Of a stretch of 64,000 nt of DNA, positions 13,501 through 63,136 are shown one piece after another. The notes under the pieces were generated by a model. It ran no database searches. It saw nothing but the letters and a program-made list of their open reading frames with translations, and was not told the DNA's origin. Position numbers and translations under genes: made by a program. The DNA lies in the NCBI GenBank assembly GCA_965220085.1, contig CBDCOZ010000003.1:1321683-1385682 (forward strand), written 5' to 3'. This stretch comes from Candidatus Oxydemutatoraceae bacterium. GTDB taxonomy: Bacteria > Pseudomonadota > Gammaproteobacteria > Poriferisulfidales > Oxydemutatoraceae. How positions within the stretch are numbered: position 1 is the stretch's first letter; each line of letters opens with the position of its first letter.

Positions 13501-16500
13501 CGCCGTGCAGCTCGGCGACCAAACCGCCCGCCCGCTCCTGGTGTCGGTCGGTCCTTATCGTGCCGCTGACGCCGATGTTTGAGATGACGCCATCCTCGCC
13601 GACCGAACCGAACAAGCCCTGCCGCCCCGCATTGCGCCGGATATGCAGGTTTTCAATCGCATGGCCGTTGCCGTTAAATGTCGTCGCAAACGGATTGCCG
13701 CTGTCGCCGATTGGCGGCCAACCTTCGCCGCTCATCCAGGTATCGGTGCTGCTCAAAACATGGTCGGCGGGGTCGGAAAAATCCAGATTCGTCAACAACT
13801 CATAGCCGATGCAACCGCTTTTCGGGCAGCCCATGCCCTCCGTCGCAATCAAAAATGCGGCCTGATAATTCGCCCGATTGCCCGCGGTCGCAATACCATC
13901 GCCGTCCAAATCCCAGCGCATCGCGTTGAGTTGATCCAGGTTGGCGATGTCTATCAGACCATCGTCGTCAAAGTCATAATCGCGTCCCGACATCGCATAA
14001 CTGCGGCTTGCTTCGCCGCCGTCTATGACAGCGGCAACGTGATACGCATAGGAACTGGTCGTATTGGCGGTCATATCGGCATAAGATTCGGCCGATAAAT
14101 TATAGGCCCCGGCTAACGCGATGCCGTCGCGGTAAACCCGGTAGCGGATAGGCGGCGCGGCATCCCACTCAGGCGCCGCGGTCGGCGCTTGCCAATTCAG
14201 AGATCGGGCGGTATCGCCATATGCGACCGATAACGCCGGCGGCCCTTGGCGCAACTGGTAACCGAATTCCTGCCACCTCGCCTCGCCGTTGCCGTCAAAA
14301 TCAACTTTCAGCGCGGGGTATTGCGCGGCGCTGCCAAAGTCCCAATGGTCGCCGCCGTCGTTCCAATTGGCATAGATACCGGCATAGTCTGTCGGACTCT
14401 GCAACTCGGCAGTCCCTTTGCCGCCGATGCCGGTGACCGCACCCAACCCGATCGCATCGTTCTTGGCCGAAGTCTCGGTATCCCAATAGACAGCGGTCGC
14501 CTCAACCGAAGCCGCAAAAACACCGCCGACACCGCCGCTCGCGCTGCCTGACGGATGAAGCAGACCGGTGGCATAACTATACTTGACATTCGCATTGCCC
14601 AGATTGCCGATCAAACCGCCGCCGAACTGACTGCTGCCGCCGCGGGTTACGTTCACATAACCGCTCGCATACGTATGTTCAATCGTCCCATTCGCGGAGC
14701 CGCTGTCGTCTCTGCCGAGCAAGCCGCCCGCTTCGGAGTTGGCAAACACATTGCCGGTCGCATAACTCCTGCGGATGGCGGCGCCCGCCCGACTGGCGCC
14801 GAGCAAGGAGCCGACATAAGCCCGGCCTTCGACCGCCACCGCGGAGTAGCTGTCTTCTATCGTGCCGCTCGCGCTATCGCCGATCAGTCCGCCGACATAA
14901 TTATTGTCGCCCGCGTCGATGGATCCGGTGACGCCGACATTGCGCACCACAGCGCCGGCGATCGCGCCGAACAACCCTTGGTAGGGCGCGTTGCGGTCGA
15001 TGCGCAACCTGCGAAGCGTATGGCCGTTGCCGTCAAAGGTCGCCGTAAACGCGGCGCTGTCGCCGCCGATCGGCGGCCAACCGGCGCCGCTCGTCCACGC
15101 CGTGTTGATACGGCCGCTGTGATAACTGTCGGCGGCGGCAAAATTCAAATCGCGCGTCAACTCATAACCGATGCACGCATCGTTGACGCAACCCAGACCG
15201 GAAATCGCGCTGTGAAAAGCGCGGTCGTAGTCCGTTTGATCGCCCGCGGCAACGACGCCATTGCCGTCCAAGTCCCAGCGCATCGCGTTGAATTGTTCCA
15301 ACGTACTCACTTCGATCAGACCGTTGTCATCGCGGTCATAGTCATACGATTCCGATACGATGGCGCTGCGAATCGCCTCGCCGCCGTAAACGTTCGCGGC
15401 GACGTGATAGACGTAGTTGCGGGTCGCGGTCGTGTTCGTATCGGCGTATTCCGTCAGCGCCGTGTTTTCAATCTCCGGCACGAGGATGCCGTCGCGATAG
15501 AGCGCAAACGTGACCATCGGCGCCGGCGCGCAGTGCGAGGTGTCGGGCATATCCCAAGTAAGAGTTCTGGTTGCATGGACTCCGCTCACTGTCAGCGTCG
15601 GCCCCGTGCGTAACTGGCAACCGAACTCCTGCCAACTCGCCTCACCGTTGCCGTCAAAATCGATCTTCAGCGCCGGGTACTGCTCGGACGTGCCAAAATC
15701 CCAGTGGTCGCCATCGCTTGCATTCCAGCTCGCATAGATGCCGGTGTAGGTCGTCGGCAGTTGTAGTTCGGCGCTCGTCCATCCGCTGATGCCATCATCG
15801 GAACCGTCGCCGACACCGTTGCTATTGGCCGAGGTCTCGCGGTCCCAATAGACATCGGTGAACGTCGCATTGACATTCTCACCGATGACACCGCTGCCCA
15901 TTGATACTATGGGGTCGATCAAAGCGGTGGAATAACCGTAGCCGATCTGTCCCGCCTCGACACGACCGATTAAACCACCTAACAATCTACTGTTACTATC
16001 TAAGCCACTTACATACCCGGTCGCATAGACGTGCTCTACGGTGCCCCCGTGCGTAGAAATACGACCAATCAAACCACCCGTCTGCCTATGCGAATTTATA
16101 TTCCCGGTTGCATAACTCGTACGAACCGTGCCCGCCCTGAGTCTGCCGACCAAAGAACCAACTTCGTTGCGTCCGCTCACCGCGACCGTCGAAAAACTGT
16201 CCTCTATCACCCCGTCAACGCGCACCTGACCGGCCAAGCCGCCGGAAGTATCCTGCCCGTTTACCGCACCGGTGACACCGAGGCGGCTGATGACCGCCGG
16301 GGTTTCAACTACACCGAACAAACCTTGCAGAGATGCATCCCTGTCTATATGCAGGTTATAGATCGTATGACCGTTGCCAGCGAATGCCGCTACAAATCTA
16401 TTATCGGCGCCACTGCCGCCAATCGGCTCCCAACCCTCGCCTTCGCGCCACGCATCATGGACTTTGCCGGTAGCGTAGCTGTCGGGGTCATCAAAATCCA

Positions 16501-19500
16501 GGCTTTGATCCAATTCATACCCGCGACACCCCGAAGGCTCGGCGGAGGTCGACGCAACGGCCGGACACCCCATGCCGACCAGCGCGCCGACAAAAGCTTT
16601 GCCGTAGGCGCGGGCGCCGGCGGATGCAATACCGTCGCCGTCCAAGTCAAACCGCACCGCATCCAGTTGCTCCAGCGTGCTGATTTCAATCAAGCCGTCG
16701 TCGTCGCTGTCGTAATCGTTGATCGGCAACACGACGCGGTCACTGCGGCTCGCTTCGCCGCCATGGATAACCGCCGCCACCCAGTAGGCGTTTCTGACAG
16801 CGAGGTCCGCGCCGGTTATGGCGTAACGCGTCTGCGCAAAGTCTATGCCGTCGCTCAAGAGCGCGCCGTTGTGATACACGGCGTAGGTGACCGTCGGCGT
16901 AGCGGGCGACCAGTGCGACACATCGGGCGCGCTCCACTCCAGCGTCCAATCGGTATCGGCCCCGCTGGCGGTCAAATTGGCGGGGCCGTCGCGCAACTGA
17001 TAGCCGAATTCTTGCCAGCTCGCGATGTCGTCATTGTCAAAATCAACTTTCAGCGCCGGGTATTGCGACGCGCTGCCGAAGTCCCAGTAGTCGCCGCCGT
17101 CGGCATTCCAGTTTTGATAGATGCCGACATAGCCTGTCGCCGCCTGCAACCCGGCCGTCGTCTCGCCGCTGATGCCCGCAACCGCCGCCGACCCGCTCGC
17201 GCTGTTCGCGATGCCCGACGTGTCAATATCCCAATAGGCATCGCGGAGTATGGCGTTCGCATTGATCACACCGCCGCCGACTCCGCCGCTGCGTAACACG
17301 CCGGCGGGAAGTTGCGCGGTCGCGTAGCCATAGCCGAGCCGCACCGCTCCCAGATTGCCGATCAAACCGCCGACATTGTAATTAAAACCCCCGCTCGCCA
17401 AACTGATTTGCCCGGTGGCGTATGTATGCTCGACCGTGCTGCCTGTGGAGACGCCGTACACTTGACCGATCAAGCCGCCGATTTCCTGATGACCGCTTAC
17501 ATTGCCCGTCGCATAACTCGCGCGCACCGCGCCTTGCTCGTTGTAGCCGAGCAGCGAACCGACGTCAAATCCGGCCGCGACCGATACCGTCGAGTAACTC
17601 TTTTCAATGCGACCGCCGCCGACCATTGCGGCGACCAAGCCGCCCATCAATTCTTGATACGGGGTCGCAGTAATCGCGCCGGTCACACCGACATTTGAGA
17701 TCATCGCGCCTTCGCCGAGTTCGCCGAACAGCCCTTGTTGGTTCGCCAGACGACCGATATGCAAGCCCTCTATGGCATAGCCGTCGCCGTTAAACGTCGC
17801 TGTGAAGCGATCACCGCTGTCGCCGATCGGCGACCAGCCGTCGCCCGCCGTCCATGCCTCGTTGACAGCGCCGCCGGCATAGCTCGCCGCGGCGCGGAAA
17901 TCGAGCGCGGTCGTCAGTTCATAGCCGCTGCAACCGTCGGCGCAACCCATGCCGGCGATCGCATGCGGGAAAGCCCGCGCGTAGTCTCCGGCGTGATCGG
18001 ATGTCGGCGCGCCGTCGCCGTCCGTGTCCCAACGCAACGCATTCAGTTGTTCCAAGTTGGCGATCTCTATCAAACCGTCGTCGTCGCGGTCGTAGTCATG
18101 CGATCTGGATACGACGCGCGCGCGGATCGCTTCGCCGCCATCGATGACAACGGCGACATGATAGACATAATTCGTGCCGGCGATCGCGGCGGTGTCGGCA
18201 TAACGCATCGCCGTCAGGTTTTTGCCATCCGACAACACGGAGCCGTCGCGATAGACGGCAAATGCGACGGTGGGCGAAGAGGCGCAGTGAGCCGTATCGG
18301 GCATGCCCCAACTGATATCCCTCCGCTGATCGGCGCCTTGCGTCGCCGCCGCGACGCCCGCGCGCAACTGGCATCCGAACTCTTGCCACGTCGCCATGCC
18401 GTCGTTGTTAAAGTCAACTTTCAGAGCCGGGTATTGCTCGCTGTCGCCGAAATCCCAATGATCGTTGGCATCCGCATTCCAGGCGCCATAGATACCGGTA
18501 TACGTCGTCGGCAAGCGCAACTCGGCGGTGGTTTTGCCGATGACACCGTCGGCGGCGCCGTTGCCGACCGCGTTCGTTGCGCCGGAGGTTTGGGTATCCC
18601 AGTAGACGGCGGCAAACACGGAGTCGCTGCCGGTGATCCTGCCGATGACGCCGCCGCGCGCGCTCATATTGGGAGCGACCGCGGCCGTGGCATAGCCATG
18701 CCTCAGTCGCGAACTGTGACTGACGTCGGCGACCAATCCGCTCGCAAATGCGCTCGGGTGATCGCTCGTCGTGCCGACATAACCGGTGGCGTAAACATGC
18801 TCCGCGGTCGCGCTTCCCAAAGTGGAACCGGCCGCGCCGATCAAGCCGCCCGCCGCGTTGATGGCATAGGCGCTGCCGGTCGCATAACTGCTCCGAACCG
18901 CGCCGGTTTCAAGACGACCGACCAGAGAAGCGACGCCATGCGACCCCTCCGCCGTGACCGTTGAGTAGCTGTTGGCAACCGTGCTGCTATTGCTTACCTG
19001 CCCGACCAAGCCGCCGATATTGTCGCTGTTGCTGCCGTTGGACCTTGACGCCACTTTGCCGGTCACGCCGACATTGGCAATCATCGCGTTTTGACCGCCG
19101 ACGCCGAAGAGTCCCTGATGCGACGCCAGACTGTCGATGCGCAAGTTGTAAATCGTGTGACCGTTGCCGTTGAATTCTGTTTTCAGGCGGCGGATGTTGA
19201 CGCCGATCGGCGACCAACCGGCGCCGCTTGCCCATACGGTGTTCGTGGTGCCGGCGGCATAGCTGTCAAGGTCGGCAAAATCCAAATCGCGGAGCAACTC
19301 GTAGCCTCTGCAACTGCCGCTGGCGGGACAACCCATGTTGGCGGCGGCGCCGGGGAAAGCCGCGGCATACGATTCGGCGACCCAGGATAAGGGCGTGCCG
19401 TCGCCGTCCAAATCCCAACGCACCGCATTGAGTTGATGCAGATTGCCGATCTCGATCAGACCGTCATCGTCGCTGTCATAGTCGGCAGCGGATGCATAAG

Positions 19501-19597
19501 ACACAGAACAGCACGCTGCCAGCGCCGCTATTCCGGCAAGCAATATTTTCAACTCGGTAACCCCCTCCAAGTACTTCATGACAGAACTAATATTCAT
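1523..19597 (-). CDS. Giant secreted multi-module protein, 6,024 aa: signal peptide, 12 x (Ca-binding DxDxDG motif + GLUG-like beta-helix + FN3-like) modules, about 5 cadherin-like repeats, conserved FLEGPLR C-terminal tail
   Basis: Uninterrupted 18,075-nt ORF. The N-terminus MNISSVMKYLEGVTELKILLAGIAALAACCSVSYASA is signal-peptide-like, with an AxA site before ADYDSDDDG. I counted 12 DYDxDDDGLIEI...WQEFG[YC]QLR modules by motif. The C-terminal region carries cadherin motifs (GLFAIDxxSGEIxLA, LDHE/YE, YxLxVxA). The protein ends ...AGIRLRLRLFLEGPLR. Confidence 0.9.
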   Translation of the reverse strand: MNISSVMKYLEGVTELKILLAGIAALAACCSVSYASAADYDSDDDGLIEIGNLHQLNAVRWDLDGDGTPLSWVAESYAAAFPGAAANMGCPASGSCRGYELLRDLDFADLDSYAAGTTNTVWASGAGWSPIGVNIRRLKTEFNGNGHTIYNLRIDSLASHQGLFGVGGQNAMIANVGVTGKVASRSNGSNSDNIGGLVGQVSNSSTVANSYSTVTAEGSHGVASLVGRLETGAVRSSYATGSAYAINAAGGLIGAAGSTLGSATAEHVYATGYVGTTSDHPSAFASGLVADVSHSSRLRHGYATAAVAPNMSARGGVIGRITGSDSVFAAVYWDTQTSGATNAVGNGAADGVIGKTTAELRLPTTYTGIYGAWNADANDHWDFGDSEQYPALKVDFNNDGMATWQEFGCQLRAGVAAATQGADQRRDISWGMPDTAHCASSPTVAFAVYRDGSVLSDGKNLTAMRYADTAAIAGTNYVYHVAVVIDGGEAIRARVVSRSHDYDRDDDGLIEIANLEQLNALRWDTDGDGAPTSDHAGDYARAFPHAIAGMGCADGCSGYELTTALDFRAAASYAGGAVNEAWTAGDGWSPIGDSGDRFTATFNGDGYAIEGLHIGRLANQQGLFGELGEGAMISNVGVTGAITATPYQELMGGLVAAMVGGGRIEKSYSTVSVAAGFDVGSLLGYNEQGAVRASYATGNVSGHQEIGGLIGQVYGVSTGSTVEHTYATGQISLASGGFNYNVGGLIGNLGAVRLGYGYATAQLPAGVLRSGGVGGGVINANAILRDAYWDIDTSGIANSASGSAAVAGISGETTAGLQAATGYVGIYQNWNADGGDYWDFGSASQYPALKVDFDNDDIASWQEFGYQLRDGPANLTASGADTDWTLEWSAPDVSHWSPATPTVTYAVYHNGALLSDGIDFAQTRYAITGADLAVRNAYWVAAVIHGGEASRSDRVVLPINDYDSDDDGLIEISTLEQLDAVRFDLDGDGIASAGARAYGKAFVGALVGMGCPAVASTSAEPSGCRGYELDQSLDFDDPDSYATGKVHDAWREGEGWEPIGGSGADNRFVAAFAGNGHTIYNLHIDRDASLQGLFGVVETPAVISRLGVTGAVNGQDTSGGLAGQVRVDGVIEDSFSTVAVSGRNEVGSLVGRLRAGTVRTSYATGNINSHRQTGGLIGRISTHGGTVEHVYATGYVSGLDSNSRLLGGLIGRVEAGQIGYGYSTALIDPIVSMGSGVIGENVNATFTDVYWDRETSANSNGVGDGSDDGISGWTSAELQLPTTYTGIYASWNASDGDHWDFGTSEQYPALKIDFDGNGEASWQEFGCQLRTGPTLTVSGVHATRTLTWDMPDTSHCAPAPMVTFALYRDGILVPEIENTALTEYADTNTTATRNYVYHVAANVYGGEAIRSAIVSESYDYDRDDNGLIEVSTLEQFNAMRWDLDGNGVVAAGDQTDYDRAFHSAISGLGCVNDACIGYELTRDLNFAAADSYHSGRINTAWTSGAGWPPIGGDSAAFTATFDGNGHTLRRLRIDRNAPYQGLFGAIAGAVVRNVGVTGSIDAGDNNYVGGLIGDSASGTIEDSYSAVAVEGRAYVGSLLGASRAGAAIRRSYATGNVFANSEAGGLLGRDDSGSANGTIEHTYASGYVNVTRGGSSQFGGGLIGNLGNANVKYSYATGLLHPSGSASGGVGGVFAASVEATAVYWDTETSAKNDAIGLGAVTGIGGKGTAELQSPTDYAGIYANWNDGGDHWDFGSAAQYPALKVDFDGNGEARWQEFGYQLRQGPPALSVAYGDTARSLNWQAPTAAPEWDAAPPIRYRVYRDGIALAGAYNLSAESYADMTANTTSSYAYHVAAVIDGGEASRSYAMSGRDYDFDDDGLIDIANLDQLNAMRWDLDGDGIATAGNRANYQAAFLIATEGMGCPKSGCIGYELLTNLDFSDPADHVLSSTDTWMSGEGWPPIGDSGNPFATTFNGNGHAIENLHIRRNAGRQGLFGSVGEDGVISNIGVSGTIRTDRHQERAGGLVAELHGGLIEESYSTVALDSAFEVGSLLGFNDKGTVRASYATGYVRGHRGVGGLIGEAYAYSNESTVEHTYATGQLAVAVSDADNDAGGLIGYLGAVRLRYSYSTARVPAEAKRSGAIGGGASAGAPVFDSVYWDVDASGELDKAVSGGYAPGVAGAPTVLLQAFADYEDLYASWNAENTDYWDFGADKQYPALQVDFNNDGDISWQEFGYQLREGPTLTMSGIGASRTLSWTTPDTSHWPASAPIIAYVVYHNDAVAADGLARTSYVDAAIDLDIINTYRVAAVVGGGEASRSAGFVLPIRDYDRDDDGLIEIATLEQLDAVRWDLDSEGPPMFEPQRYQRAFIAALPGMGCPAAVSTATSACRGYELIKDLDFADPASYASGAINAAWTEGDGWPPIGEKFVGNRFETTFDGNGHTIHNLYGGGTPSLRGLFGGIEAPAIVRRVGVTGSIRVQDAAGGLVGRIYDGGTVEESYSAVAVRGTHGVGSLVGDIQGGIVRRSYATGNATGSSQIGGLIGGIASEGASVEHVYATGYADGTRGGANSSVGGLIGRVRAGQIRSAYSTALVYPAKTFHGGFVGRSDAATFDDVYWDVETSAMSNGVGNGSDSGIGGKTSMELQMATTYAGIYANWNADGGDYWDFGGAKQYPALKIDFNNSGEASWQEFGYQLREGPSRLETGSGAPRKLAWQAPDTSHWDPAPAVGYAVYRDGVALTRDDDIRDTAYMDSGAIDGVDYVYQVAAVVHGGEASRSVAVSRSTDYDTDDNGLIEISSLDQLNVVRWDLDGDGVPAASTRAYLLVFPDAALPGMGCPAGSGCRGYELNGDLDFADVGSYVEGSTVTTAWTQGEGWEPIGGSGADNKFTAVFNGNGHTIYNLHIDRDAAAQGLFGIVETPAVISRLGVTGVVRVREVSGGLAGQLRTDGVIEDSFSTVAVRGRFDIGSLVGRLRAGTIRRSYATGNAEGFNRTGGLIGRISAHGGTVEHVYATGYVSGFNRNSESSGGLLGNAGAGQINYGYSTALLDSIASMSGGFVGENVNATFTDVYWDRETSAKNNGVGDGSDDGISGWTSAELQMPTTYTGIYENWNTSDSDHWDFGTSEQYPALKTDFDGYGEASWQEFGCQLREGPADLTVGYQLTSRTLDWSEPELSHWASTPTITYAVYRDGIVLADGIETSSYADVTADADTIYAYHVAAVINGGEASRSVIVSGRDYDIDDDGLIGIGTLEQLNAMRWDMDGDGNPDDADHAADYAAAFPNTVGTVGCPGVCGGYELTRDLDFDNPADYASGAVNSAWADGWDPIGNLTNVFATAFNGNGHTVYNLGIDTNAERQGLFGDARGATIANIGVTGAIARAGNRVGGVVGSLEGGAIANSYSAVSVRANGFAGGIVGYVANIALRTSYATGNVSASNQVGGLLGFVSNASTSLEHAYATGRVDINGDNANRKGGGLIGDAGGARIGYAYATALVVPDLPRSGGAVGVAGSDSVFASVYWDLETSGRDNAADRAIDGIDGKSSAELRSPPGYVGIYADWNTDGGDYWDFGSSKQYPALKIDFNNDGEASWQEFGCQVREKPILAARGTGDVRTLAWSAPDVSHCKANTSVSYNVYRDGEALTAAGEWTATSYVDAQRSADTEYVYHLAAVIDGGEAARQSIRSRIVDYDDDDDGLIEIDSLEQLDAVRWDLGGDGVPATDSSATYAAVFPDPADDMGCPGGCSGYELMRNLDFDDFASYVTGNVSSAWTTGEGWAPIGAPAAGDRFAATFDGNGHTIYNLHIDRDATAQGLFGAIETPARIGNLGVTGAVVGNDVVGGLVGLLRTDSAIENSYSAVAVRGRSEVGSLAGRVRAAAVRRSYATGNAAAANRAGGLIGRIAALGGTAEHAYATGYVSGVNNSGEVLGGLIGDTSAGQISYAYSTALIDSAATMAGGVVGENSHAAFADIYWDRETSGKQNGVGAGSDSGIDGKTSFELRMPTTYTGIYKNWNTDNSDYWDFGASDQYPALKVDFDGDGAASWREFGCQARSAPVVTASGAGTSRTLNWSAPDTDHCALPQAVTYAVYRDGAALTAGEGIAETTYADTAAVIDDTYAYHVAAVVHGGEAVRGVAVSMARDYDSDDDGLIEVATAEQLAAIRWDLDGDGAPSASTQEYVTRFVDAATNMGCVGTCAGYELINDLDLRAASAGSAEGWVAIGSEAAPFTAIFNGNGNVIANLSIDREADRQGLFGAVVGGTVRNVGVTGTVDASASSLSASGDRVGGLIGELSDGAVRDSYSAVTALGDRSIGSLLGSAKRSVIRASYATGNTHANGRAGGLIGRADDSGGGNDSEIAHVYATGFVDATMATFNRWAGGLIGSLQSAQLKYGYSAALIHPDPIESGGLIGFNALRSDALTAVYWDAGASGRDNPIGLHVLGPGYEGGDKSISELQAPTTYAGIYANWNADGADYWDFGSNNQYPALKVDFNNDGEASWREFGCQLREPPQNAVHYLVGAAVKLTWDAPDVSHCATPPTVGYAVYRDGIRLTAPGGIAEARYLDETSVGGIAHTYHIAAVVNGGEASRHVETLATIDYDRDDDNLLDISNLDQLNAIRWDTDGDGHASTENRSHYLIAFPKSSGGKGCPSGCGGYELTRDLDFADANSYAPDSDSAKRSTGAGWLPIGAREDRYAAVFDGKGRRIDNLRIDRAADRQGLFGSINSSATVSNIGITGSVAGGDQSGGLVGELSGGIVTNSYSAVSARGGEAVAPLVGYADGGAVLASYASGNTSATAVAGGLIGGSGNSANTTVEYVYATGYVNAQRAAGGLIGNMGALQIKYSYAASLINSAAATSGGIAGEVNGVNPTFAVVYWDAQVTGKQRAAGSGSASGATGKTGAELQTPTAYSGIYADWNADDSDNWDFGNAEQYPALKADFDGDGIPSWQEFGCQIREDLALTVRGVGDRDLSWSAPDTTHCAADTVVAYAVYRDSLALASVAEARAEYADTTAAIGSDYTYHVVAVIDGGEAARSVAVSRSRDYDTDDNGLIEITNLEQLDALRWDLDGDGIPSADSRRYETAFPHSAADLNCAHGCNGYELTRSLDFNDSGSYAASTNSEWTAGAGWMPIGARENRFIAAFNGNGHVIENLYIRRDADAQGLFGSAAGATITGVGVTGSVRGGTAVGGLVGELAGGTVAQSYSTVAAQGTEQVGSLLGSVNGGVLRASYATGRALADAAGGGLSGGGDNDANIIIEHVYAAGYVNAQRQGGGLLGSVGGNMRLEYAYSTALVAPGNHGGVAGRVAGGNPVFEAVYWDSDVSGQSVAFGFGSAAGVAAKTAAELQSPTGHVGIYAKWDVNGSIDYWDFGAADEYPALKTDFDGEGTPSWQEFGYQLRQGPRDAAITYADHANVLTWSAPDTSHWQSPPAIAYAVYRDGIAITTATAVMTYEDTERVAGTLHAYSVAAIVHGGEASRSAAPVGLAIADTDPAANTIAENATVGAPLRGITLIANDGDSAVTSGLTWILSDDAGGLFAIDRDSGEITLARAELDHETTPTYVLQVRAERDGDLSAPFAVRADVGNVPKRLTVTNAAMPDITIGAVPDSRIAKNTLVGAPVSNIMLVVSDETNNPVTSGLTWSLPDDADGLFAIDSASGEIVLARSVEDHENTQTHTVRVRVETDNMVYAELEVAIAIDNAPESLTIANRSTATIAVAENTPVGALLGGITLVATDETNNPVTSGLTWSLTEDADGLFAIDADSGAIRLAGMLDYETSATHTITAQAAEGAVLSNRLDLMITVIDFDEAIIAPTVSDTDPTTNTIVENSADTAVAGVSLAATRNGVALSGIIWQLTDDASGLFVITTAGVVRTSADRAPDYETDAGHRVRAAATASDGSIGEYTLMINVTNVLESLRVADDNSADNRIAENAATATAVSGIALVARDEANNPVTSGLTWSLSDNAGGLFAIDSASGEIRLAAAAALGPVATTHTVAVRVSFAGAEAVESDDWELTIEVTEPRAGIRLRLRLFLEGPLR
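1560..3190 (-). repeat. Cadherin-like repeat region (about 5 repeats) at the C-terminus of giant protein 1
   Basis: The translation shows ~100-110-aa units with IAENxxxGAPV, TSGLTW[SI]L[SP]DDA, GLFAIDxxSGEIxLA, xLDxExxxTH and VRVRV-type motifs typical of cadherin/Big-like extracellular repeats. Confidence 0.75.
3190..19480 (-). repeat. Array of 12 divergent tandem coding modules (~1.35-1.5 kb each) in giant gene 1
   Basis: Each module reads: DYDxDDDGLIEIxxLEQLNAxRWDLDGDG, then ...MGCP..C.GYEL..DLDF, then GNGHTIxNLxI..QGLFG, then multiple GGL[IV]G/SYATG/VYATG Gly-rich beta-helix repeats, then VYWDxxTSG...WDFG..QYPALKVDF..WQEFG.QLR, then an FN3-like segment (L.W.APD.SHW/C...YxVYRDG...Y.Y.VAAV..GGEA.RS). 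The copies are divergent at nucleotide level, not identical. Confidence 0.85.
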
Positions 19598-19718
19598 CTA
19601 TTTATTAATGGGTGACACCCCCGGACATGTTTATAAATGTTCTTAGCGAAGGTGTTAAGCGAGTATACAAGTGCGTCATAAGTGGCTGGCGAATCATATA
19701 CTTAGCATGTGTATATCC

Positions 19719-20054
19719 TGTGTATAACCTATTTATGACTTATTAGTGTCGTGTTAATAGCCTGTGGATAAGTGCATCGCTCTGGAGACATGTTGTCGCG
19801 TATGTGCTGGCGTGTTCTGTGGATAACTTTATCACTTCATCAACGTAGCGGCGAGACATGTCCTGTGCATATCCTGTGTGTAAATGTATCACGACCCAGA
19901 CGTTGCCTAGAATCTTCTGTGGATAAATTTATGTGCCGCTGCGCCGGTATGTTACCGAGCGGGCGCTGTGAATATCCCTGTGTATAAAAATGTGGCACTC
20001 GATAGATGTAACCGCGAGTGTGCCGGTTATCCCTGTGGATATATCTGTGGATGA
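19719..20054. promoter_or_regulatory. Cluster of same-orientation DnaA boxes (TGTGGATAA = complement of TTATCCACA): candidate replication origin or DnaA-regulated region
   Basis: Three perfect 9-mers TGTGGATAA sit at 19763-19771, 19818-19826 and 19918-19926. Same-strand near matches are TGTGTATAA at 19719-19727 and 19979-19987, TGTGTGTAA at ~19875-19883, TGTGGATAT at 20034-20042 and TGTGGATGA at 20046-20054. Spacing is about 45-60 bp. An AT-rich stretch lies at ~19621-19760. The region is directly upstream of giant gene 1 (start 19597, minus strand). Confidence 0.6.
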
Positions 20055-20137
20055 AATGTGTCGCCTCGCAGACGCGACCAAGAATGTGCTACTGATGCCT
20101 TGTTAATATTTCTGTGGGCAAGTCTGTCCCCCAACGC

Positions 20138-20153
20138 TCTCCCGCGCGGGAGA
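20138..20153. repeat. 16-bp perfect palindrome TCTCCCGCGCGGGAGA
   Basis: Read directly from the sequence. It lies in the intergenic stretch between the DnaA-box cluster and the coiled-coil gene stop. It could be a protein-binding site or a short hairpin. Confidence 0.5.
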
Positions 20154-20343
20154 ATAGATTCGGCGACAACGCAAAAACTGTCCCCCAAACTATCTTTCAT
20201 GGCGCGCCCCAGAAACGACCCGCAAACAATTAAGTACGGAGCCCAAGCCGAAGCATCAAGCGCCCTATTGCTCCATGCGTCCGATATGTCTTGCATCATA
20301 CGCGCCCCCCTCTCTGTCGGCGCGAACAAGATACGGCGCAGGT

Positions 20344-21183
20344 CTAAACGAAGAGCGCAATAAATATAGTTAGCGCCGCAACAATAAGAGCCGCTAACCC
20401 AAGGGAGACCATCACGAACAGATTTGTGATTTTTGCTATTTGATTATCTATTGCTGCTCTCGTCTCAGTTACTATTGCTTTCAACTCATCTATTTTTTCT
20501 TGGGTTCTTTCTCTGGACTCGGCTATTTCTTTTTGGGTGTCTGATCTGGACTTGGCTATCATTGCTTCCAACTTAGCCATTTCTTTTTGGGTTTTTGCCC
20601 CGGACTCGGCTATTTCTTTTTGGGTGTCTGATCTGGACTTGGCTATCATTGCTTCCAACTTAGCCATTTCTTTTTGGGTTTTTGCCCCGGACTCGGCTAT
20701 TTCTTTTTGGGTGTCTGACCTGAACTTGGCTATCATTGCTTCCAACTTAGCCATTTCTTTTTGGGTTTTTGCCCCGGACTCGGCTATTTCTTTTTGGGTA
20801 TCTGACCTGAACTTGGCTATCACTGCTTCCAATTTATCTATTTCTTTTTGGGTTTTTGCCCCGGACTCAGCTATCATTACTTTCAACTCAGCCACTGCTA
20901 CTTGCAACTCAGTTATGTCTTTTTGGGTTTCCGACCTATGCTTGGCAAATTCCTCTCTGAGCGCTGATTCATACTCGGCAATTTTTGCTCTAATCGCCGA
21001 TTCAAACTCGGCAAATTCGCCTTTCGTTGTCAGAGCGCTCAGGTATCTGTGCAACAGCGCGGATAGCTCGTTGGCAATCGTGCGCGCTTTCTCCTCGTCA
21101 AAGCCCACGCCGGTCAAGTTCTCAACGGAGCCATAAATAACCTCCGCTGTCTCTTCCACTTTTAAATCTTTGGTTTTTTTCAT
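20344..21183 (-). CDS. Tail-anchored coiled-coil protein with 29-aa tandem repeats and a C-terminal transmembrane helix
   Basis: The ORF track gives 20344..21204. I prefer the second ATG (MKKTKDL...) because GGAGGG sits 6 nt upstream of it. The protein is Lys/Glu/Ala-rich with heptad-like repeats: ESGAKTQKEMAKLEAMIAK[FS]RSDTQKEIA occurs 4-5 times. The C-terminal hydrophobic helix is ITNLFVMVSLGLAALIVAALTIFIALFV. G+C is visibly lower than in the flanking giant genes. Confidence 0.75.
   Translation of the reverse strand: MKKTKDLKVEETAEVIYGSVENLTGVGFDEEKARTIANELSALLHRYLSALTTKGEFAEFESAIRAKIAEYESALREEFAKHRSETQKDITELQVAVAELKVMIAESGAKTQKEIDKLEAVIAKFRSDTQKEIAESGAKTQKEMAKLEAMIAKFRSDTQKEIAESGAKTQKEMAKLEAMIAKSRSDTQKEIAESGAKTQKEMAKLEAMIAKSRSDTQKEIAESRERTQEKIDELKAIVTETRAAIDNQIAKITNLFVMVSLGLAALIVAALTIFIALFV
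20515..20880. repeat. 87-bp direct tandem repeat, 4 copies plus a diverged fifth, inside the coiled-coil gene
   Basis: The motif GGACTCGGCTATTTCTTTTTGGGTGTCTGA recurs at 20515, 20602, 20689 and 20776, a period of 87 bp (29 codons), with a diverged copy at ~20873. Confidence 0.9.
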
Positions 21184-21378
21184 GATTATCCCTCCGGGTT
21201 TCATAATAATAATACTAATTCAGAAGCTATAATCAATAGCCTTCGTGCCGGATAATAGCGCTTATTTCGGGAGTCACAACCAACTAATAGACAGGCGGTT
21301 TTAATTGTCTGACGAACGGTCTGACAGCGCCAATTCACAGCGTGATTTTTCTGCAAAGAAGCATTTGCGCGAGTGCCG

Positions 21379-21693
21379 TCATGACGCTCCCGTCGCAGGT
21401 AATCGCAGAGTCCGAGCACAAACGAAGGACGATGCGATGAGAGAGAAATCTTCGCGCTTGCACGAACTGTTGCAAAACTTTCCGCCCGCACTCGCGAGGC
21501 GAATCATGCCGGAAACATTTTGGCTTGCCCTCTCTAATCCTTGAATACCGCTGCCGCCCGCAATCTGTGTGATGCCCATATGTTGATACGCGCGCTCCCT
21601 GCGATGCCATTGTTTGTCTTTCAATGCTTGAAACACTTTATAAACTTTGCTTTCTTTGTCATGAAAGCGGGTTTCGAAATCCTTCGCATTCAT
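21379..21693 (-). CDS. Small hypothetical protein (~104 aa), translationally coupled to the upstream methyltransferase fragment
   Basis: The ORF track gives 21379..21768. A start at the internal ATG (MNAKDFETRFHDKESKVYKVFQALKDKQWHRRERAYQH...) is favoured because AGGGGA sits ~7 nt upstream. This ATG lies 1 nt after the methyltransferase TAA stop. No recognisable domain. Confidence 0.4.
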   Translation of the reverse strand: MNAKDFETRFHDKESKVYKVFQALKDKQWHRRERAYQHMGITQIAGGSGIQGLERASQNVSGMIRLASAGGKFCNSSCKREDFSLIASSFVCARTLRLPATGAS

Positions 21694-21694
21694 A

Positions 21695-22860
21695 TTAATC
21701 CCCTGTGCGAGAACAAGCCGCGGCATAAACTGTCTCGTCTTTCTCGTAGGCCAGCGCTCTTCTGCCAAGCTTGTTTGCGGCTATCAATGTGGTTCCGCTT
21801 CCCGCAAACGGGTCATAAACAAAATCGGCTTTATTGCTAAACAAGGCAATAAGCCGTTCCATCAGAGGAAACGGTTTCTGTGTCGGGTGGATGCGTTGCT
21901 GTGGCGACGGAGACTTACAGACAAACGCATTATGCGCATTCCTGCCATTAAACCCGGTTCCCGGCCTTTTGCCGACCGCTATGGCTTCCCATGCATTGAC
22001 AGGCTTAAATTTGCGGTTGAACGGAACCGGGTTGGTTTTTTGCCAGACGATTGTCTCTGCCGCAACAAACCCATGAGACTTCAAACATTCGCAGCGCTCC
22101 CCAATCTGCGCTTGGGCGCAAAAGGTCGCCGCCCGCCCGCTTTAGGGAGGAGAATGTCAAACCATTCCAAAGGTTCAATGCCGCCATCCCAATCCCCAAA
22201 ATTCCCTTTGGGCATAATAAAATCTTTTCCGTCTTTGCGTAATCGTCTGGGAACTTGTTTTTCACAAGCGTAAGCCTTGCTTATGCCGCAGGGAGGATCG
22301 GTCAAAAACAAATCCACTTCGCGGTCATCCGGTTTTTCCGCCGCCGCAATCCCGTCTCCTAACTTAAATGCGCAATTGCTGCCCTCTAACGAGGCGGGGC
22401 ATTCTTGCAATGCAAGTTGTTCGGATAGCAGTTCTTCGATTTGTTTTGTAATGCTCCGAATGTTTCCATTCTTCTCAATTTTTGCATCTTCGCGAAGGAA
22501 TAAGCGCTCAAGCAGCATCGCATGTCCGCTGATATCCTTCGCATATAAATCAATCTCCCATGCCTTTTCCGATTCGTTATAGACGGGTTCTTTGTGAGAC
22601 AAGAACTTCCTATGTCTCGGGAAGTTCTCCGTTATCCATTTATTAACAGATGCCCGTAATTTAATCTTCTGCTTGACTTGGTCGGCAGTCGCTATGCTCA
22701 CCGTATCAACCCCTCGCGGGTAATCCGCTTGCCATGCATTTGGCATGCGCCATGCCGGCGACATGCGCTTTGGCGGAATGATGAACGGCGCAATGACGTT
22801 TGACCGCGCCGGCGCGCGAAGGGTTTTCATCCGCAAAGAGGGCGGAGCCCTTGCGGACAT
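21695..22860 (-). pseudogene. Frameshift-disrupted beta-class (PF01555-like) N4/N6 DNA methyltransferase with an unusual DPPC motif
   Basis: Two overlapping ORFs in different frames make up the gene. ORF 22081..22860 carries ...DLFLTDPPCGIS...GDWDGGIEPLEWFDILLPKAGG and then leaves the expected sequence (RRPFAPKRRLGSAANV*). ORF 21695..22084 starts at a TTG and carries ...GFVAAETIVWQKTNPVPF...RIHPTQKPFPLMERLIALFS...VYDPFAGSGTTLIAANKLGRRALAYE (motifs HPTQKP and FxGSGTT). A single -1/+2 frameshift at about 22085-22135 (GC runs GGGCGGGCGGCG / CCCC) reconciles them. The true start is uncertain: GTG at 22701 with a GAGGGG SD is a candidate, and a ~150-aa N-terminal region of unknown function precedes the DPPC motif. 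Confidence 0.7.
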
Positions 22861-23012
22861 TTTTATGCATCGTTGTCCGCAGCGTTGTCTTTGTCATGTT
22901 TTCTATCGGCATGGCTTTCGCTCCGCCCTTGCCCTCGCGCATTCCTATTATGGCGGTTTTGCCAACGCCGCCCCTCTCCGGCAGCCTCTCCGCTCGCCGC
23001 GAGAGGGAATGC

Positions 23013-23760
23013 TTACCGGAGGGGGCCTTCGAGGAAGACGCGCAAGCGGATCCGGATTCCGACATCGACATCGGGTCGCTCCGTCGCCATAATGGTAATG
23101 GTCAGCATAAACGGAGCGGATACCACCATCTCGCGATTGGGTTCTCTGAACGAAGCCCGCACTATTATGGTACGCGTCTGCTCCGTCTCAAGGTCCGGCG
23201 CGTCGTTCGCCAATGTAATCGCGCCGCTGGCAGGGTCAATCGCGAACAAGCCGCCGGGGTTCGTCACCAAGTTCCACGTCAGCCCTTCCGTCACTTCCGT
23301 GCCCGCTTCGTCGGTCACCATAAGCCGGATACCCGGCACCGGCGCGCCGGCCCGCGCGCCCTCGGCAATGATACTGCCGGCGCCATCGCTGTCGGTAACC
23401 ATCAATGTCTCCAGCACATTGGTCAGGTTTATCGTCAGAACCAGCGTGGCCGGCTGATAACGGTCGACCACGGCGGTTACGGTGACGCTGTAAACGCGAT
23501 CTTCGCTTTCGTAATCCGGCGCGGCTTTCGCCAGCGTAATCTCGCCGCTGGTGGAATTGATTGCAAACAAGCCCTCCGCATCATCGCTCAAACTCCATGT
23601 CACGCCGCTGACAATGGCAGCGGAGGCGGCTTCGTCCCGCGCTTGCAATGTCACGCCCGATATCGCCATGCCCGCCGTCGCCGTCTCCGCCACTGTGTTG
23701 GCGGTCGGGTTGATGTCGGTTATCGCCAGCGTTGTGTTGGCTTGCACCGCGTACGCATAG
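23013..23760 (-). repeat. Cadherin-like repeat region (2-3 repeats) plus conserved C-terminal tail of giant protein 2
   Basis: TAVAET..AGMAISGVTLQARDEA...VSGVTWSLSDDAEGLFAINSTSGEITLAKAAPDYE...YSVTVTAV is followed by a second unit and then ERPDVDVGIRIRLRVFLEGPLR*. Confidence 0.7.
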
Positions 23761-62723: not shown

Positions 62724-62780
62724 GCAAATTCGGATTGTCAGAGTATAACACGCTCTGCGGCGGGCGGCGGAAAATGGGGA

Positions 62781-62960
62781 TTATATGCTTAAAAACATAA
62801 GACTCATTATCGCCGTTTGAGAATAGCGAGTTTCTAACTCTTTCCTTGTCGGCTTTTTATTCTCATACATTGGCTTTTCGGGCGCCTTGGCTAATAGCGC
62901 ATCCTTAACCGCATCTGCAAATGCTTTAAGCGTTGTTTTCTTATGGTTTTTCTGTTTCAT
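62781..62960 (-). CDS. Small ORF B (59 aa), downstream partner of the overlapping ORF pair; absent from the ORF track because it is under 60 aa
   Basis: Manual translation of the minus strand: MKQKNHKKTTLKAFADAVKDALLAKAPEKPMYENKKPTRKELETRYSQTAIMSLMFLSI*. AAGGA sits 7 nt upstream of the ATG. The start codon overlaps the ORF A stop (ATGA). Confidence 0.35.
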   Translation of the reverse strand: MKQKNHKKTTLKAFADAVKDALLAKAPEKPMYENKKPTRKELETRYSQTAIMSLMFLSI

Positions 62961-63136
62961 TGTAATCCTTCTAAAAAGTTATCCATTTTTTCGGGAATTA
63001 TATGCCTGTGTATGCAAAACAGCCTATCAGTCCGCAATCCTAAAATTGACTCCGGCCATTGCGCTGCTTTGCGCTCTGTTTCAAACATCTTATACAGTTC
63101 AAATAATCCGATTGTCTTTGCCTTTCTCTTTGCCAT
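62957..63136 (-). CDS. Small ORF A (59 aa), upstream partner of an ATGA-overlapping ORF pair
   Basis: MAKRKAKTIGLFELYKMFETERKAAQWPESILGLRTDRLFCIHRHIIPEKMDNFLEGLQ. AGGGG sits ~7 nt upstream of this ATG. The ORF track's longer version (to 63193) starts at a TTG. Its stop TGA overlaps the ATG of ORF B (caATGAaac). AT-rich context. Confidence 0.35.
   Translation of the reverse strand: MAKRKAKTIGLFELYKMFETERKAAQWPESILGLRTDRLFCIHRHIIPEKMDNFLEGLQ

What the first reader, a model, noticed from the sequence alone, without database searches (positions are those of the whole stretch)
19719..20054. Array of eight same-orientation DnaA boxes with three perfect TGTGGATAA 9-mers
TGTGGATAA is the exact complement of the consensus DnaA box TTATCCACA. 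There are three perfect copies and at least five 1-2-mismatch copies, all in one orientation, spaced ~45-60 bp apart, next to an AT-rich stretch. This is the organisation of an oriC or datA/DARS-like DnaA-titrating locus. Alternatively it could be an unusually DnaA-dense promoter for giant gene 1, whose start codon is only ~120 bp away. No dnaA or dnaN gene is nearby, so if this is oriC its genomic context is unusual. If it is regulatory, it would couple expression of a giant surface protein to DnaA status.
Basis: partly seen in the sequence, partly recalled or inferred. Interest (0 to 1): 0.65.

Follow-up and report, generated by a model that had tools for sequence, protein, structure and literature searches.

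The report
One-directional DnaA-box array before giant gene
A 500-bp non-coding stretch just upstream of an 18-kb surface-protein gene holds 13 same-direction binding sites for the replication initiator DnaA; the array is real and far beyond chance, but it fits a non-origin DnaA-binding cluster better than the chromosome's replication origin.

Summary
There are three perfect TGTGGATAA, four 1-mismatch and six 2-mismatch boxes between 19628 and 20121. All 13 are on the + strand, and many form doublets 11-12 bp apart. Spacers are not repeated, so the boxes, not a duplicated unit, are what recurs.

The oriC reading fails most tests I could run:
- no opposite-strand boxes (64 of 65 dnaA-linked control clusters have them)
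- no DnaA-trio run
- no dnaA, dnaN, hemE or parA/parB gene and no parS site in the window
- no CtrA or IHF consensus
- all genes on both sides on one strand
- GC skew uninformative

DARS is excluded because it needs head-to-head boxes.

Similar-looking arrays that are not origins turned up in my control scans: the Bacillus gcp-ydiF cluster, arrays directly upstream of dnaB, and many phage genomes.

The host is probably an uncultured alphaproteobacterium. The array lies in a low-GC islet of decayed mobile genes between two giant GLUG/cadherin genes.

Best reading (about 0.5): a non-origin DnaA-box cluster that assembles a head-to-tail DnaA filament over the promoter region of giant gene 1, gating that gene and/or titrating DnaA. 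oriC remains possible (about 0.2). The whole-contig skew, which I could not obtain, would decide.

The parts
19628..20121 (+). Whole DnaA-box array: 13 sites with at most 2 mismatches to TGTGGATAA, all in one orientation (they read TTATCCACA on the - strand, the sense strand of giant gene 1)
19763..19771 (+). Perfect DnaA box TGTGGATAA, preceded 11 bp upstream by the weak box TGTTAATAG (19752)
19818..19826 (+). Perfect DnaA box (TTCTGTGGATAAC)
19918..19926 (+). Perfect DnaA box (TTCTGTGGATAAA)
19708..19727 (+). Doublet TGTGTATAT-CC-TGTGTATAA (2-mismatch plus 1-mismatch box, 11 bp start to start)
19864..19883 (+). Doublet TGTGCATAT-CC-TGTGTGTAA (two 2-mismatch boxes)
19967..19987 (+). Doublet TGTGAATAT-CCC-TGTGTATAA (2-mismatch plus 1-mismatch box), followed by a further TGTG at 19991
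20034..20054 (+). Doublet TGTGGATAT-ATC-TGTGGATGA (two 1-mismatch boxes)
20101..20121 (+). Doublet TGTTAATAT-TTC-TGTGGGCAA (weak boxes; right end of the array)
19628..19636 (+). Weak box TGTTTATAA (2 mismatches) that overlaps the putative -10 element of giant gene 1
   Evidence: sequence
19630..19658 (-). Putative sigma-70-like promoter of giant gene 1 on the - strand: -35 TTAACA (19653-19658), 17-nt spacer, -10 TATAAA (19630-19635). Read by eye; not called by the scan tool, which needs T at position 6 of the -10
   Evidence: sequence; one search found no other promoter-like site in 19598-20343
19570..19609 (.). Most AT-rich patch (23% GC), on the side of the array towards which a DnaA filament would extend; a candidate unwinding element if this were an origin, otherwise promoter or 5' UTR DNA
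19696..19750 (.). Second AT-rich patch (28-35% GC), overlapping the leftmost doublet
1523..19597 (-). Giant gene 1 (6024-aa ORF; GLUG-motif modules plus C-terminal cadherin domains). The likely true start is TTG 19550-19552, 8 nt after GGAGGGGG, which gives a lipoprotein-type signal peptide (MKILLAGIAALAAC)
   Evidence: start inferred from the sequence
20344..21204 (-). Coiled-coil protein with a C-terminal membrane helix (286 aa; weak match to phrog_9415); its stop codon lies 222 bp to the right of the array
19553..23012 (.). Low-GC islet (0.40-0.55, against 0.60-0.70 in the giant genes) between the two giant genes. It holds the array, the coiled-coil gene, a split N6/N4 DNA methylase pseudogene (21695-22860, -) and an IS1595 transposase fragment (22706-23071, -)

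Best explanation
This is a non-origin DnaA-box cluster, of the kind known as DBCs in Bacillus subtilis. It sits in the 790-bp upstream region of giant gene 1 in a probable alphaproteobacterium.

Proposed mechanism (inferred, not shown):
1. DnaA binds the three consensus boxes at 19763, 19818 and 19918.
2. All sites face the same way and neighbours are 11-12 bp apart, so ATP-DnaA extends head-to-tail from the strong boxes onto the flanking weak boxes.
3. The result is a nucleoprotein complex of ten or more DnaA molecules covering about 450 bp.
4. That complex reaches the putative promoter of gene 1, where a weak box overlaps the -10 element. Transcription of the 18-kb gene would then follow the cell's DnaA-ATP level.
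5. The same complex takes a sizeable share of DnaA out of circulation (titration).

Shown: the sites, their orientation, spacing and position. Inferred: DnaA binding, the promoter, and the direction of the regulatory effect.
For: - Box identity and non-randomness.
- Boxes recur while spacers do not, as expected for binding sites under selection rather than a recent tandem duplication.
- Same-direction boxes with 2-3 bp gaps are the arrangement on which DnaA forms head-to-tail oligomers (PMC6868365 introduction).
- Strictly one-directional arrays are rare at bona fide origins. In 120 control loci found with a three-box pattern, only 1 of the 65 linked by clustering to dnaA, dnaN, recF, yidC, jag or gyrB had no opposite-strand box, against 16 of the other 55. 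One of those 16, L085, proved to be dnaA-linked by Pfam. None of the 15 high-GC dnaA-linked loci was one-directional.
- Identified non-origin arrays in the control set: the known B. subtilis-type DBC[gcp-ydiF] in four Bacillales loci (L086, L095, L096, L115); arrays directly upstream of dnaB in five loci (L009, L035, L047, L091, L111), with TTATCCACA on the gene's sense strand as here; and two separate arrays in one MAG (L010, L118).
- B. subtilis DBCs regulate neighbouring genes and restrain initiation (PMC3245932).
- The array lies wholly within the upstream region of gene 1, with a plausible promoter at its proximal end.
- Origin tests failed (see the membership table).
Against: - No relative carrying the array was found, so conservation could not be tested.
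- The upstream regions of the two paralogous GLUG genes have no boxes and no similarity to this one, so the array is not a general feature of these genes.
- Thirteen sites over 490 bp is more than is usually needed to control one promoter.
- The promoter is read by eye only.
- Alphaproteobacterial DnaA regulation is not known to use DBCs.
- The position of the true oriC in this genome is unknown, so 'non-origin' rests on failed origin criteria, not on a located origin.
- Some alphaproteobacterial origins have mostly co-directed boxes (Azospirillum: 5 of 6; preprint 10.64898/2026.09.14.751567). This weakens the orientation argument.
Confidence: 0.5

Rival explanations
1. It is the chromosomal replication origin (oriC) of this bacterium, in an unusual place. 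DnaA fills the array, the filament extends leftwards into the AT-rich DNA at 19570-19750 and unwinds it. Giant gene 1 is transcribed away from the origin, as gidA is at E. coli oriC.
For: - Very high density of consensus boxes.
- More than half of three-perfect-box clusters in other genomes are dnaA-linked origins (65 of 120).
- AT-rich, low-stability DNA lies on the correct side (the 5' side of TGTGGATAA, as DUE to R1 in E. coli).
- The doublet spacing resembles the E. coli left DnaA-oligomerisation region.
- In Alphaproteobacteria, oriC is normally not next to dnaA (PMC1914354), so the absence of dnaA and dnaN counts for little.
Against: - No box on the opposite strand (13 to 0), unlike 64 of 65 dnaA-linked control origins.
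- No run of 3 or more NAN trios within 16 nt of any box on the required strand (0 observed, 2.2 expected in shuffles). 85% of predicted origins have one (PMC8287927).
- No hemE, COG1806, parA/parB, mnmE, mnmG or rsmG gene in the window or in L001.
- No parS within 3 mismatches.
- No CtrA (TTAA-N7-TTAA) or IHF consensus.
- All real genes on both sides are on the - strand, so a 40-kb gene would be transcribed head-on into the origin.
- The array lies in a low-GC islet with decayed mobile genes.
- Thirteen boxes far exceed the 3-6 typical of alphaproteobacterial origins (PMC1914354; Azospirillum preprint).
Confidence: 0.2
2. It is a module brought in by a phage or other mobile element: a phage-type DnaA-box array that once served the element (as an origin, or to hijack DnaA) and is now stranded in a decayed islet. 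It may or may not still bind DnaA to any effect.
For: - The islet 19.55-23.0 kb has 40-55% GC against 60-70% around it, and holds a split DNA methylase (phrog_67), an IS1595 transposase fragment and a coiled-coil protein with a phage-family match (phrog_9415).
- One-directional DnaA-box arrays are common in phage genomes. A pattern taken from this array hit 57 metagenome contigs, many with terminase, portal and primase/helicase genes.
- More than 120 IMG/VR contigs hold three perfect tandem boxes, and 145 cultured phage records match a synthetic array.
- T5-like phages carry 8 ordered boxes in a non-origin region (preprint 10.1101/866236).
- The 20-mer TGTGTATATCCTGTGKATAA of the window recurs almost exactly in phage contig L147.
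Against: - No protein of the islet has a relative in the 177 fetched phage and metagenome loci other than generic methylase similarity, and DNA similarity is confined to the boxes.
- No blastn match of 19598-20343 to plasmids or phages.
- No rep, integrase, terminase or att-like feature.
- Phage arrays are dense, with contiguous 11-bp units. This one is spaced (44-61 bp), which simple decay of a dense array would not produce.
Confidence: 0.17
3. The repeats are iteron-like binding sites for a protein other than DnaA, and only resemble the DnaA box.
For: Conservation extends one or two bases beyond the 9-mer (YC before every main box). Two further repeats, CTGTCCCCCAA at 20124 and 20178, continue the series but are not DnaA boxes.
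Against: Three exact consensus 9-mers and five matches to TGTGNAWAA are hard to explain otherwise. The same flanks (CTGTGGATAAC) occur at E. coli R1 and R4 and in the phage arrays. No candidate binding-protein gene is adjacent.
Confidence: 0.08

Closest known systems
[quoted passage not shown]
   Same: An intergenic cluster of many consensus DnaA boxes away from dnaA. DBCs bind DnaA stably, modulate neighbouring genes and restrain initiation. The gcp-ydiF type was recovered by the same three-box pattern that matches this array (L086, L095, L096, L115).
   Different: Different phylum, and no sequence or synteny relation. Here every site faces one way and lies upstream of an 18-kb surface-protein gene. 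No DBCs have been described in Alphaproteobacteria, which have HdaA. DnaA binding is untested here.
E. coli oriC left DnaA-oligomerisation region (R1, R5M, tau2, I1, I2) next to the DUE
   Same: Same-direction boxes with 2-bp gaps in which strong boxes nucleate weak neighbours. AT-rich DNA lies on the 5' side of TGTGGATAA. A gene (gidA there, gene 1 here) is transcribed away from that side. The flanks CTGTGGATAA are identical to R1.
   Different: E. coli oriC also has an oppositely oriented right half (R4-C1), an IHF site, GATC clusters and 13-mer repeats. None of these is present here.
E. coli datA and DARS1/DARS2
   Same: Non-coding chromosomal DnaA-box clusters that tune DnaA activity.
   Different: datA works with an IHF site (PMC10950094), and no IHF consensus is found here. 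The DARS core needs boxes I and II head-to-head (PMC6868365), whereas all boxes here are head-to-tail.
Alphaproteobacterial Cori-type origin (hemE/COG1806-flanked; Caulobacter, Rickettsia, Wolbachia, Azospirillum)
   Same: The host is probably an alphaproteobacterium. These origins are also distant from dnaA, and the Azospirillum boxes are mostly co-directed.
   Different: Those origins have 3-6 boxes, CtrA sites, an IHF site and hemE or COG1806 (yqfL) alongside (PMC1914354; 10.64898/2026.09.14.751567). None of these features is present here.
DnaA-box arrays in phage genomes (T5 injection-stop region, preprint 10.1101/866236; marine podovirus-like contigs and Klebsiella/Escherichia podophages found here)
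   Same: One-directional arrays of paired or tandem DnaA boxes in non-coding DNA of AT-richer, mobile sequence. They share the unit TGTGNATAT-CC-TGTGGATAA.
   Different: Phage arrays are mostly contiguous 11-bp tandems next to packaging or replication genes. This one is spaced, chromosomal and has no phage gene beside it.
Arrays directly upstream of dnaB in Micrococcales, other Actinomycetota and Krumholzibacteriia (seen in control loci L009, L035, L047, L091, L111; I know of no description)
   Same: A one-directional array of 7-9 boxes with 10-12 bp doublets, immediately upstream of a gene, with TTATCCACA on that gene's sense strand.
   Different: The downstream gene there is the replicative helicase, which gives an obvious logic for DnaA control. 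Those arrays are shorter (160-230 bp) and end 30-90 bp from the ORF.

Membership tests
Bacterial chromosomal origin (oriC), general | Cluster of DnaA boxes in non-coding DNA | tested here: met
   13 sites with at most 2 mismatches, 3 of them perfect, in 494 bp
Bacterial chromosomal origin (oriC), general | Boxes in both orientations (opposed DnaA sub-complexes) | tested here: not met
   13 to 0 here. Among dnaA-linked control clusters, 64 of 65 have opposite-strand boxes (mean 8.1 same, 6.1 opposite), and all 15 high-GC ones have at least 4
Bacterial chromosomal origin (oriC), general | AT-rich unwinding element next to the boxes, on the 3' side of TTATCCACA | tested here: inconclusive
   AT-rich patches at 19570-19609 (23% GC) and 19696-19750 lie on the correct side and are among the least stable DNA of the window. 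They have no 13-mer-type repeats and coincide with the promoter and 5' region of gene 1
Bacterial chromosomal origin (oriC), general | Basal unwinding system: a box, a spacer of at most 16 bp, then 3 or more DnaA-trios (NAN) (PMC8287927) | tested here: not met
   0 boxes with such a run; shuffles with the boxes kept give a mean of 2.2
Bacterial chromosomal origin (oriC), general | Linkage to origin-proximal genes (dnaA, dnaN, rpmH, parA/parB, mnmG, rsmG) or parS | tested here: not met
   None within -19.7/+44 kb or in L001. No parS within 3 mismatches
Bacterial chromosomal origin (oriC), general | Switch of GC skew and of gene strand at the site | tested here: inconclusive
   Bulk skew is negative on both sides. 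Skew at four-fold degenerate sites varies along each giant gene and shows no origin-type step. All real genes are on the - strand on both sides. The window is too short and too dominated by two genes to decide
Bacterial chromosomal origin (oriC), general | Replication starts there (marker frequency, autonomous replication) | not testable with these tools
Alphaproteobacterial Cori-type origin | Flanked by hemE and/or COG1806 (yqfL) | tested here: not met
   Flanks are giant gene 1 and a coiled-coil gene; no hemE or DUF299 gene is in the window
Alphaproteobacterial Cori-type origin | CtrA sites TTAA-N7-TTAA and an IHF site | tested here: not met
   0 full CtrA sites and 0 IHF consensus matches in 19500-20400
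Non-origin DnaA-box cluster (B. subtilis DBC type) | Several consensus boxes in an intergenic region that is not the origin | tested here: inconclusive
   Boxes and intergenic position are met. 'Not the origin' rests on the failed origin criteria above, because the true origin is not located
Non-origin DnaA-box cluster (B. subtilis DBC type) | Stable DnaA binding in vivo, and an effect on a neighbouring gene or on initiation | not testable with these tools
   Needs ChIP, footprinting and deletion analysis
E. coli datA | IHF-binding site among the boxes, needed for DnaA-ATP hydrolysis | tested here: not met
   No WATCAANNNNTTR on either strand. The consensus is from E. coli, and the host's IHF may differ
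E. coli DARS | Core of three boxes with boxes I and II head-to-head (PMC6868365) | tested here: not met
   No oppositely oriented box anywhere in 19400-20400
Iteron plasmid or chromid origin | Rep gene beside iterons plus at least one DnaA box | tested here: not met
   No Rep-like protein in the Pfam, NCBIfam or PHROG scans of the islet. No similarity to 72,556 plasmids

The most novel reading that the evidence does not exclude
A DnaA filament of ten or more protomers acts as a cell-cycle switch on an 18-kb surface-adhesin gene, tying production of a giant cell-surface protein to the replication state of the cell. The array may have been captured from a phage, where such arrays are common. The other unexcluded novel reading is that this is the chromosome's origin, strictly one-directional, without DnaA-trios, and wedged between two giant genes (about 0.2).
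Probability: 0.25. Interest if true: 0.6.

Novelty: new member of a known kind. Interest (0 to 1): 0.4.

Why it matters
If the array is a non-origin DnaA-box cluster, it would be a first candidate of that kind in an alphaproteobacterium. Replication control in that class is thought to rest on HdaA, CtrA and DnaA proteolysis rather than on titrating DNA. It would also link DnaA to expression of a giant adhesin. If it is the origin, it would be an unusually built one. Either way it is a single instance in one uncultured genome with no comparative support, so its weight is modest. The controls carry a broader message. A dense run of perfect DnaA boxes is not by itself an origin. One-directional arrays recur upstream of dnaB, at known Bacillus DBCs and, strikingly often, in phage genomes.

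Tried and rejected
1. The genome-contig scan with TGTGGATAA-N40-55-TGTGGATAA-N85-100-TGTGGATAA was meant to find the source genome and its relatives. None matched the window. I reused the loci as a control set.
2. Retrieving the source contig failed. The M23 peptidase and pterin dehydratase of the window sit on a 2,046,636-bp NCBI/ENA contig, but only a 7-kb Logan contig was returned.
3. Synteny in relatives gave nothing. M23 homologues at 54-69% identity (L122-L125) have different neighbours and no box cluster.
4. Orthologues of giant gene 1 were not found. Only short GLUG proteins of at most 48% identity came back, so conservation of the upstream region could not be tested.
5. GC skew at four-fold degenerate sites, using the two paralogous giant genes as an internal control, varies 5' to 3' within each gene and does not report replication direction.
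6. Rfam found no RNA family in 19000-23500.
7. blastn of the intergenic region against plasmids and phages found no match.
8. Tandem-duplication origin of the array is rejected: no long period was found.
9. Long-range helical phasing is not significant after correcting for multiple periods.
10. Shared promoter architecture among the three GLUG genes is rejected.
11. Homology of the islet's genes to the phage contigs that carry arrays is absent.

Full report
**The observation**

The 9-mer TGTGGATAA occurs three times in the 64-kb window, at 19763, 19818 and 19918, all on the + strand. Chance expectation is 0.16, and no shuffle reached three.
- Allowing one mismatch adds 19719, 19979, 20034 and 20046.
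- Allowing two mismatches adds 19628, 19708, 19864, 19875, 19967 and 20113.
- That makes 13 sites in 494 bp, about 40 times the window-wide density.
- Every site is on the + strand. Not one site with two or fewer mismatches lies on the other strand between 19400 and 20400.
- The tetranucleotide TGTG occurs 19 times and its complement CACA never in 19600-20200.

Six of the main boxes have a weaker box 11-12 bp upstream, which gives doublets such as TGTGTATAT-CC-TGTGTATAA.

The 33-45 bp spacers between units are unrelated to each other, and no 45-60 bp tandem period is detected. So what recurs is the site, not a duplicated block.

Every main box is preceded by YC. This is also the flank of E. 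coli R1 and R4 (my knowledge of the oriC sequence) and of the phage arrays found later. I therefore accept the sites as DnaA boxes.

The claim of long-range helical phasing is weak: R = 0.46 at an 11.2-bp period, found after trying seven periods.

**Context**

The window is dominated by two genes on the - strand.
- Giant gene 1 (1523-19597) encodes 6024 aa.
- Giant gene 2 (23013-62723) encodes 13,236 aa.
- Both are built of GLUG-motif modules with C-terminal cadherin domains.
- A third GLUG gene begins just beyond the left edge of the window (L001).

The array lies in the 3.4-kb gap between the two giants. This gap has 40-55% GC, against 60-70% in the giant genes. It also contains:
- a coiled-coil membrane protein (20344-21204, -)
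- a split N6/N4 DNA methylase pseudogene (21695-22860, -)
- an IS1595 transposase fragment

On the - strand the order is coiled-coil gene, array, gene 1. The array therefore occupies the upstream region of gene 1, and the boxes read TTATCCACA on that gene's sense strand.

The annotated ATG (19597) has no ribosome-binding site. A TTG at 19550-19552, 8 nt after GGAGGGGG, gives a lipoprotein-type signal peptide and is the more likely start. This is read from the sequence.

A plausible promoter lies at the gene-proximal end of the array: -35 TTAACA at 19653-19658, a 17-nt spacer, and -10 TATAAA at 19630-19635. The -10 is overlapped by the weak box at 19628. This is by eye only.

**Host**

The window's M23 peptidase is identical to a protein on a 2,046,636-bp NCBI/ENA contig. 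Its best named relatives, at 53-59% identity, are Alphaproteobacteria: Roseitalea, Kiloniellaceae and Thalassobaculum. The source contig could not be retrieved. The nearest relative (69% identity, L125) and more distant ones (L122-L124) have different gene neighbours and no box cluster.

**Is it oriC?**

In favour:
- The box density is very high.
- AT-rich, low-stability DNA lies on the side where a DnaA filament growing from TTATCCACA would unwind it. This DNA is at 19570-19609 (23% GC) and 19696-19750, and includes the 2nd and 4th least stable 30-bp windows of the window.
- Gene 1 is transcribed away from that side, as gidA is at E. coli oriC.
- Alphaproteobacterial origins are normally far from dnaA (PMC1914354).

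Against:
1. *Orientation.* I used the 120 loci returned by the three-box scan as controls. ORF clustering linked 65 of them to dnaA, dnaN, recF, yidC, jag or gyrB. In these loci the boxes face both ways (mean 8.1 same, 6.1 opposite), and only one has no opposite box. None of the 15 high-GC dnaA-linked loci is one-directional. Among the other 55, 16 are one-directional. One of those 16, L085, proved to be dnaA-linked by Pfam.
2. *No DnaA-trios.* No box has three or more NAN trios within 16 nt on the required strand, whereas shuffles give 2.2. This module is predicted in 85% of origins (PMC8287927).
3. *No origin-linked genes.* There is no hemE, COG1806, parA/parB, mnmE, mnmG or rsmG gene within -19.7/+44 kb, and no parS within three mismatches.
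4. *No regulator sites.* There is no CtrA site, IHF consensus or GATC. The described alphaproteobacterial origins have 3-6 boxes with CtrA and IHF sites next to hemE (PMC1914354; preprint 10.64898/2026.09.14.751567).
5. *Gene strand.* Every real gene on both sides is on the - strand, so a 40-kb gene would run head-on into the origin.
6. *Setting.* The array sits in a low-GC islet of decayed mobile genes.

GC skew cannot decide. Bulk skew is negative on both sides because both giants are on one strand. Skew at four-fold degenerate sites drifts 5' to 3' within each giant gene rather than stepping at 19.8 kb.

I put oriC at about 0.2.

**What else looks like this?**

The control loci contain identified non-origin arrays:
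- Four Bacillales loci are the B. subtilis DBC[gcp-ydiF] (TsaD on the flank; PMC3245932).
- Five loci have a one-directional array of 7-9 boxes immediately upstream of dnaB, with TTATCCACA on the sense strand as here. They come from Curtobacterium, Micrococcales, Aquiluna, another Actinomycetota MAG and a Krumholzibacteriia MAG.
- One Bacillota MAG has two separate one-directional arrays (L010, L118).
- L067 (Rugamonas brunnea) has a 480-bp one-directional array of strong and weak doublets between an ORF ending ...VKIKK and an ORF beginning MCGIVGA. From their sequences I take these to be glmU and glmS.

Phage genomes are a further source:
- A pattern taken from this array (ATATCCTGTGNNTAA-N28-40-CTGTGGATAA, present twice here) hit 57 metagenome contigs, where fewer than one is expected.
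- Most of these are AT-richer aquatic contigs with dense one-directional arrays. Many carry terminase, portal, T7-like primase/helicase and capsid genes, so they are phage genomes.
- Three perfect tandem boxes occur in more than 120 IMG/VR contigs.
- A synthetic array matches 145 cultured phage records, often near genome ends of Klebsiella, Escherichia and Shigella podophages.
- T5-like phages are already described as having eight ordered boxes in a non-origin region (preprint 10.1101/866236).

However, no protein of the window's islet has a relative in these contigs, and DNA similarity is confined to the boxes. The window's array is also spaced rather than contiguous. A phage or mobile origin of the module is possible (about 0.17) but not shown.

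**Mechanism I commit to (about 0.5)**

I read this as a non-origin DnaA-box cluster.
1. DnaA binds the three consensus boxes.
2. All sites face one way with 2-3 bp gaps, which is the arrangement on which DnaA forms head-to-tail oligomers (PMC6868365). ATP-DnaA therefore spreads onto the flanking weak boxes.
3. The assembled complex holds ten or more protomers and covers about 450 bp, reaching the putative -10 of gene 1.
4. Occupancy would rise and fall with DnaA-ATP. This would gate transcription of the 18-kb gene and sequester DnaA, as B. subtilis DBCs do (PMC3245932).

The sites and their geometry are shown. Binding, the promoter and the sign of the effect are inferred.

DARS is excluded because its core needs head-to-head boxes (PMC6868365). 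datA-type action is not supported because no IHF consensus is present.

**Limits**

There is one instance and no relatives carrying it, so there is no test of conservation. The position of the genome's true origin is unknown. The paralogous GLUG genes have unrelated, box-free upstream regions, so whatever the array does is specific to gene 1 or to this locus.

**Verdict**

The origin interpretation is not supported but not excluded. I class it as a new member of a known kind, of moderate interest.

Noticed in passing
L126-L182 (metagenome contigs), L183-L302 (IMG/VR contigs); e.g. L147 6640-6850, L150, L162, L168: One-directional head-to-tail DnaA-box arrays with an 11-bp period (up to 15 perfect boxes) are common in phage genomes. 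57 metagenome contigs matched a pattern from the window, many with terminase, portal and T7-like primase/helicase genes. More than 120 IMG/VR contigs hold three perfect tandem boxes. 145 cultured phage records (Klebsiella, Escherichia, Shigella and Salmonella phages, Microviridae, Listeria phages) match a synthetic array, often near genome ends. Apart from T5's injection-stop region, I found no description in the held literature.
   Followed up: partly
L009 324-548, L035 4661-4821, L047 1816-1979, L091 6248-6411, L111 4994-5158: One-directional arrays of 7-9 DnaA boxes lie immediately upstream of the replicative helicase gene dnaB in Curtobacterium, Micrococcales, Aquiluna, another Actinomycetota MAG and a Krumholzibacteriia MAG. 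TTATCCACA is always on the dnaB sense strand. This looks like a conserved DnaA-to-dnaB regulatory link.
   Followed up: partly
L067 6840-7290 (Rugamonas brunnea): A 450-bp one-directional array of strong and weak DnaA-box doublets (TGTGGATAA-NN-TGTGGGCAA) plus many GGATAA half-sites. It lies between the 3' end of an ORF I take to be glmU and the 3' end of a - strand ORF (possibly an AsnC/Lrp-type regulator), with an ORF I take to be glmS further downstream; these names are from reading the sequences, not from a domain scan. In build it is the closest analogue to the window's array. Whether it is that species' origin is unknown.
   Followed up: no
window 1523-19597 and 23013-62723 (- strand); L001 6286-7056: Three GLUG-motif genes in a row, of 6024 aa, 13,236 aa and a third running off the window. 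They are built of roughly 540-aa modules that each begin with a dockerin/EF-hand-like DYDxDDDGLIEI...LNAxRWDLDGDG motif. The two complete genes have cadherin domains at the C-terminus and end in FLEGPLR. No close orthologues were found: the best hits are short proteins of at most 48% identity.
   Followed up: partly
window 23013-62723 and 1523-19597: GC skew at four-fold degenerate sites on the coding strand drifts along each giant gene, from about -0.2 to -0.3 in the 5' part to about 0 in the 3' part. The same trend appears in both genes. It is not explained by replication direction. It could reflect module age or a transcription-linked mutation bias.
   Followed up: no
window 20124-20188: A perfect 16-nt GC-rich palindrome TCTCCCGCGCGGGAGA (20138-20153) is bracketed by two exact copies of CTGTCCCCCAA (20124-20134, 20178-20188; 54 bp apart). 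It lies just to the right of the last DnaA box and is not followed by a T-run on either strand.
   Followed up: no
window 21695-22860 (-): An N6/N4 DNA methyltransferase (PF01555, the family that includes CcrM) is split by a frameshift into a 259-aa N-terminal part (with a DPPC motif in place of DPPY) and a 129-aa C-terminal part. It is probably a pseudogene. An IS1595-family transposase fragment overlaps its upstream end (22706-23071).
   Followed up: partly
window 62724-63380: The region upstream of giant gene 2 is also low in GC. By eye it holds small - strand ORFs, one resembling a degenerate IS1595 zinc-ribbon N-terminus. A type I restriction enzyme R-subunit C-terminus lies at 63381-63965. 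Both giant genes are thus bordered by mobile or defence debris.
   Followed up: no
L010 and L118 (same MAG, Bacillota bacterium OH_HBB_250): Two separate one-directional DnaA-box arrays with strict 21/42-bp spacing lie on different contigs of one genome, so at least one of them is not the origin.
   Followed up: no
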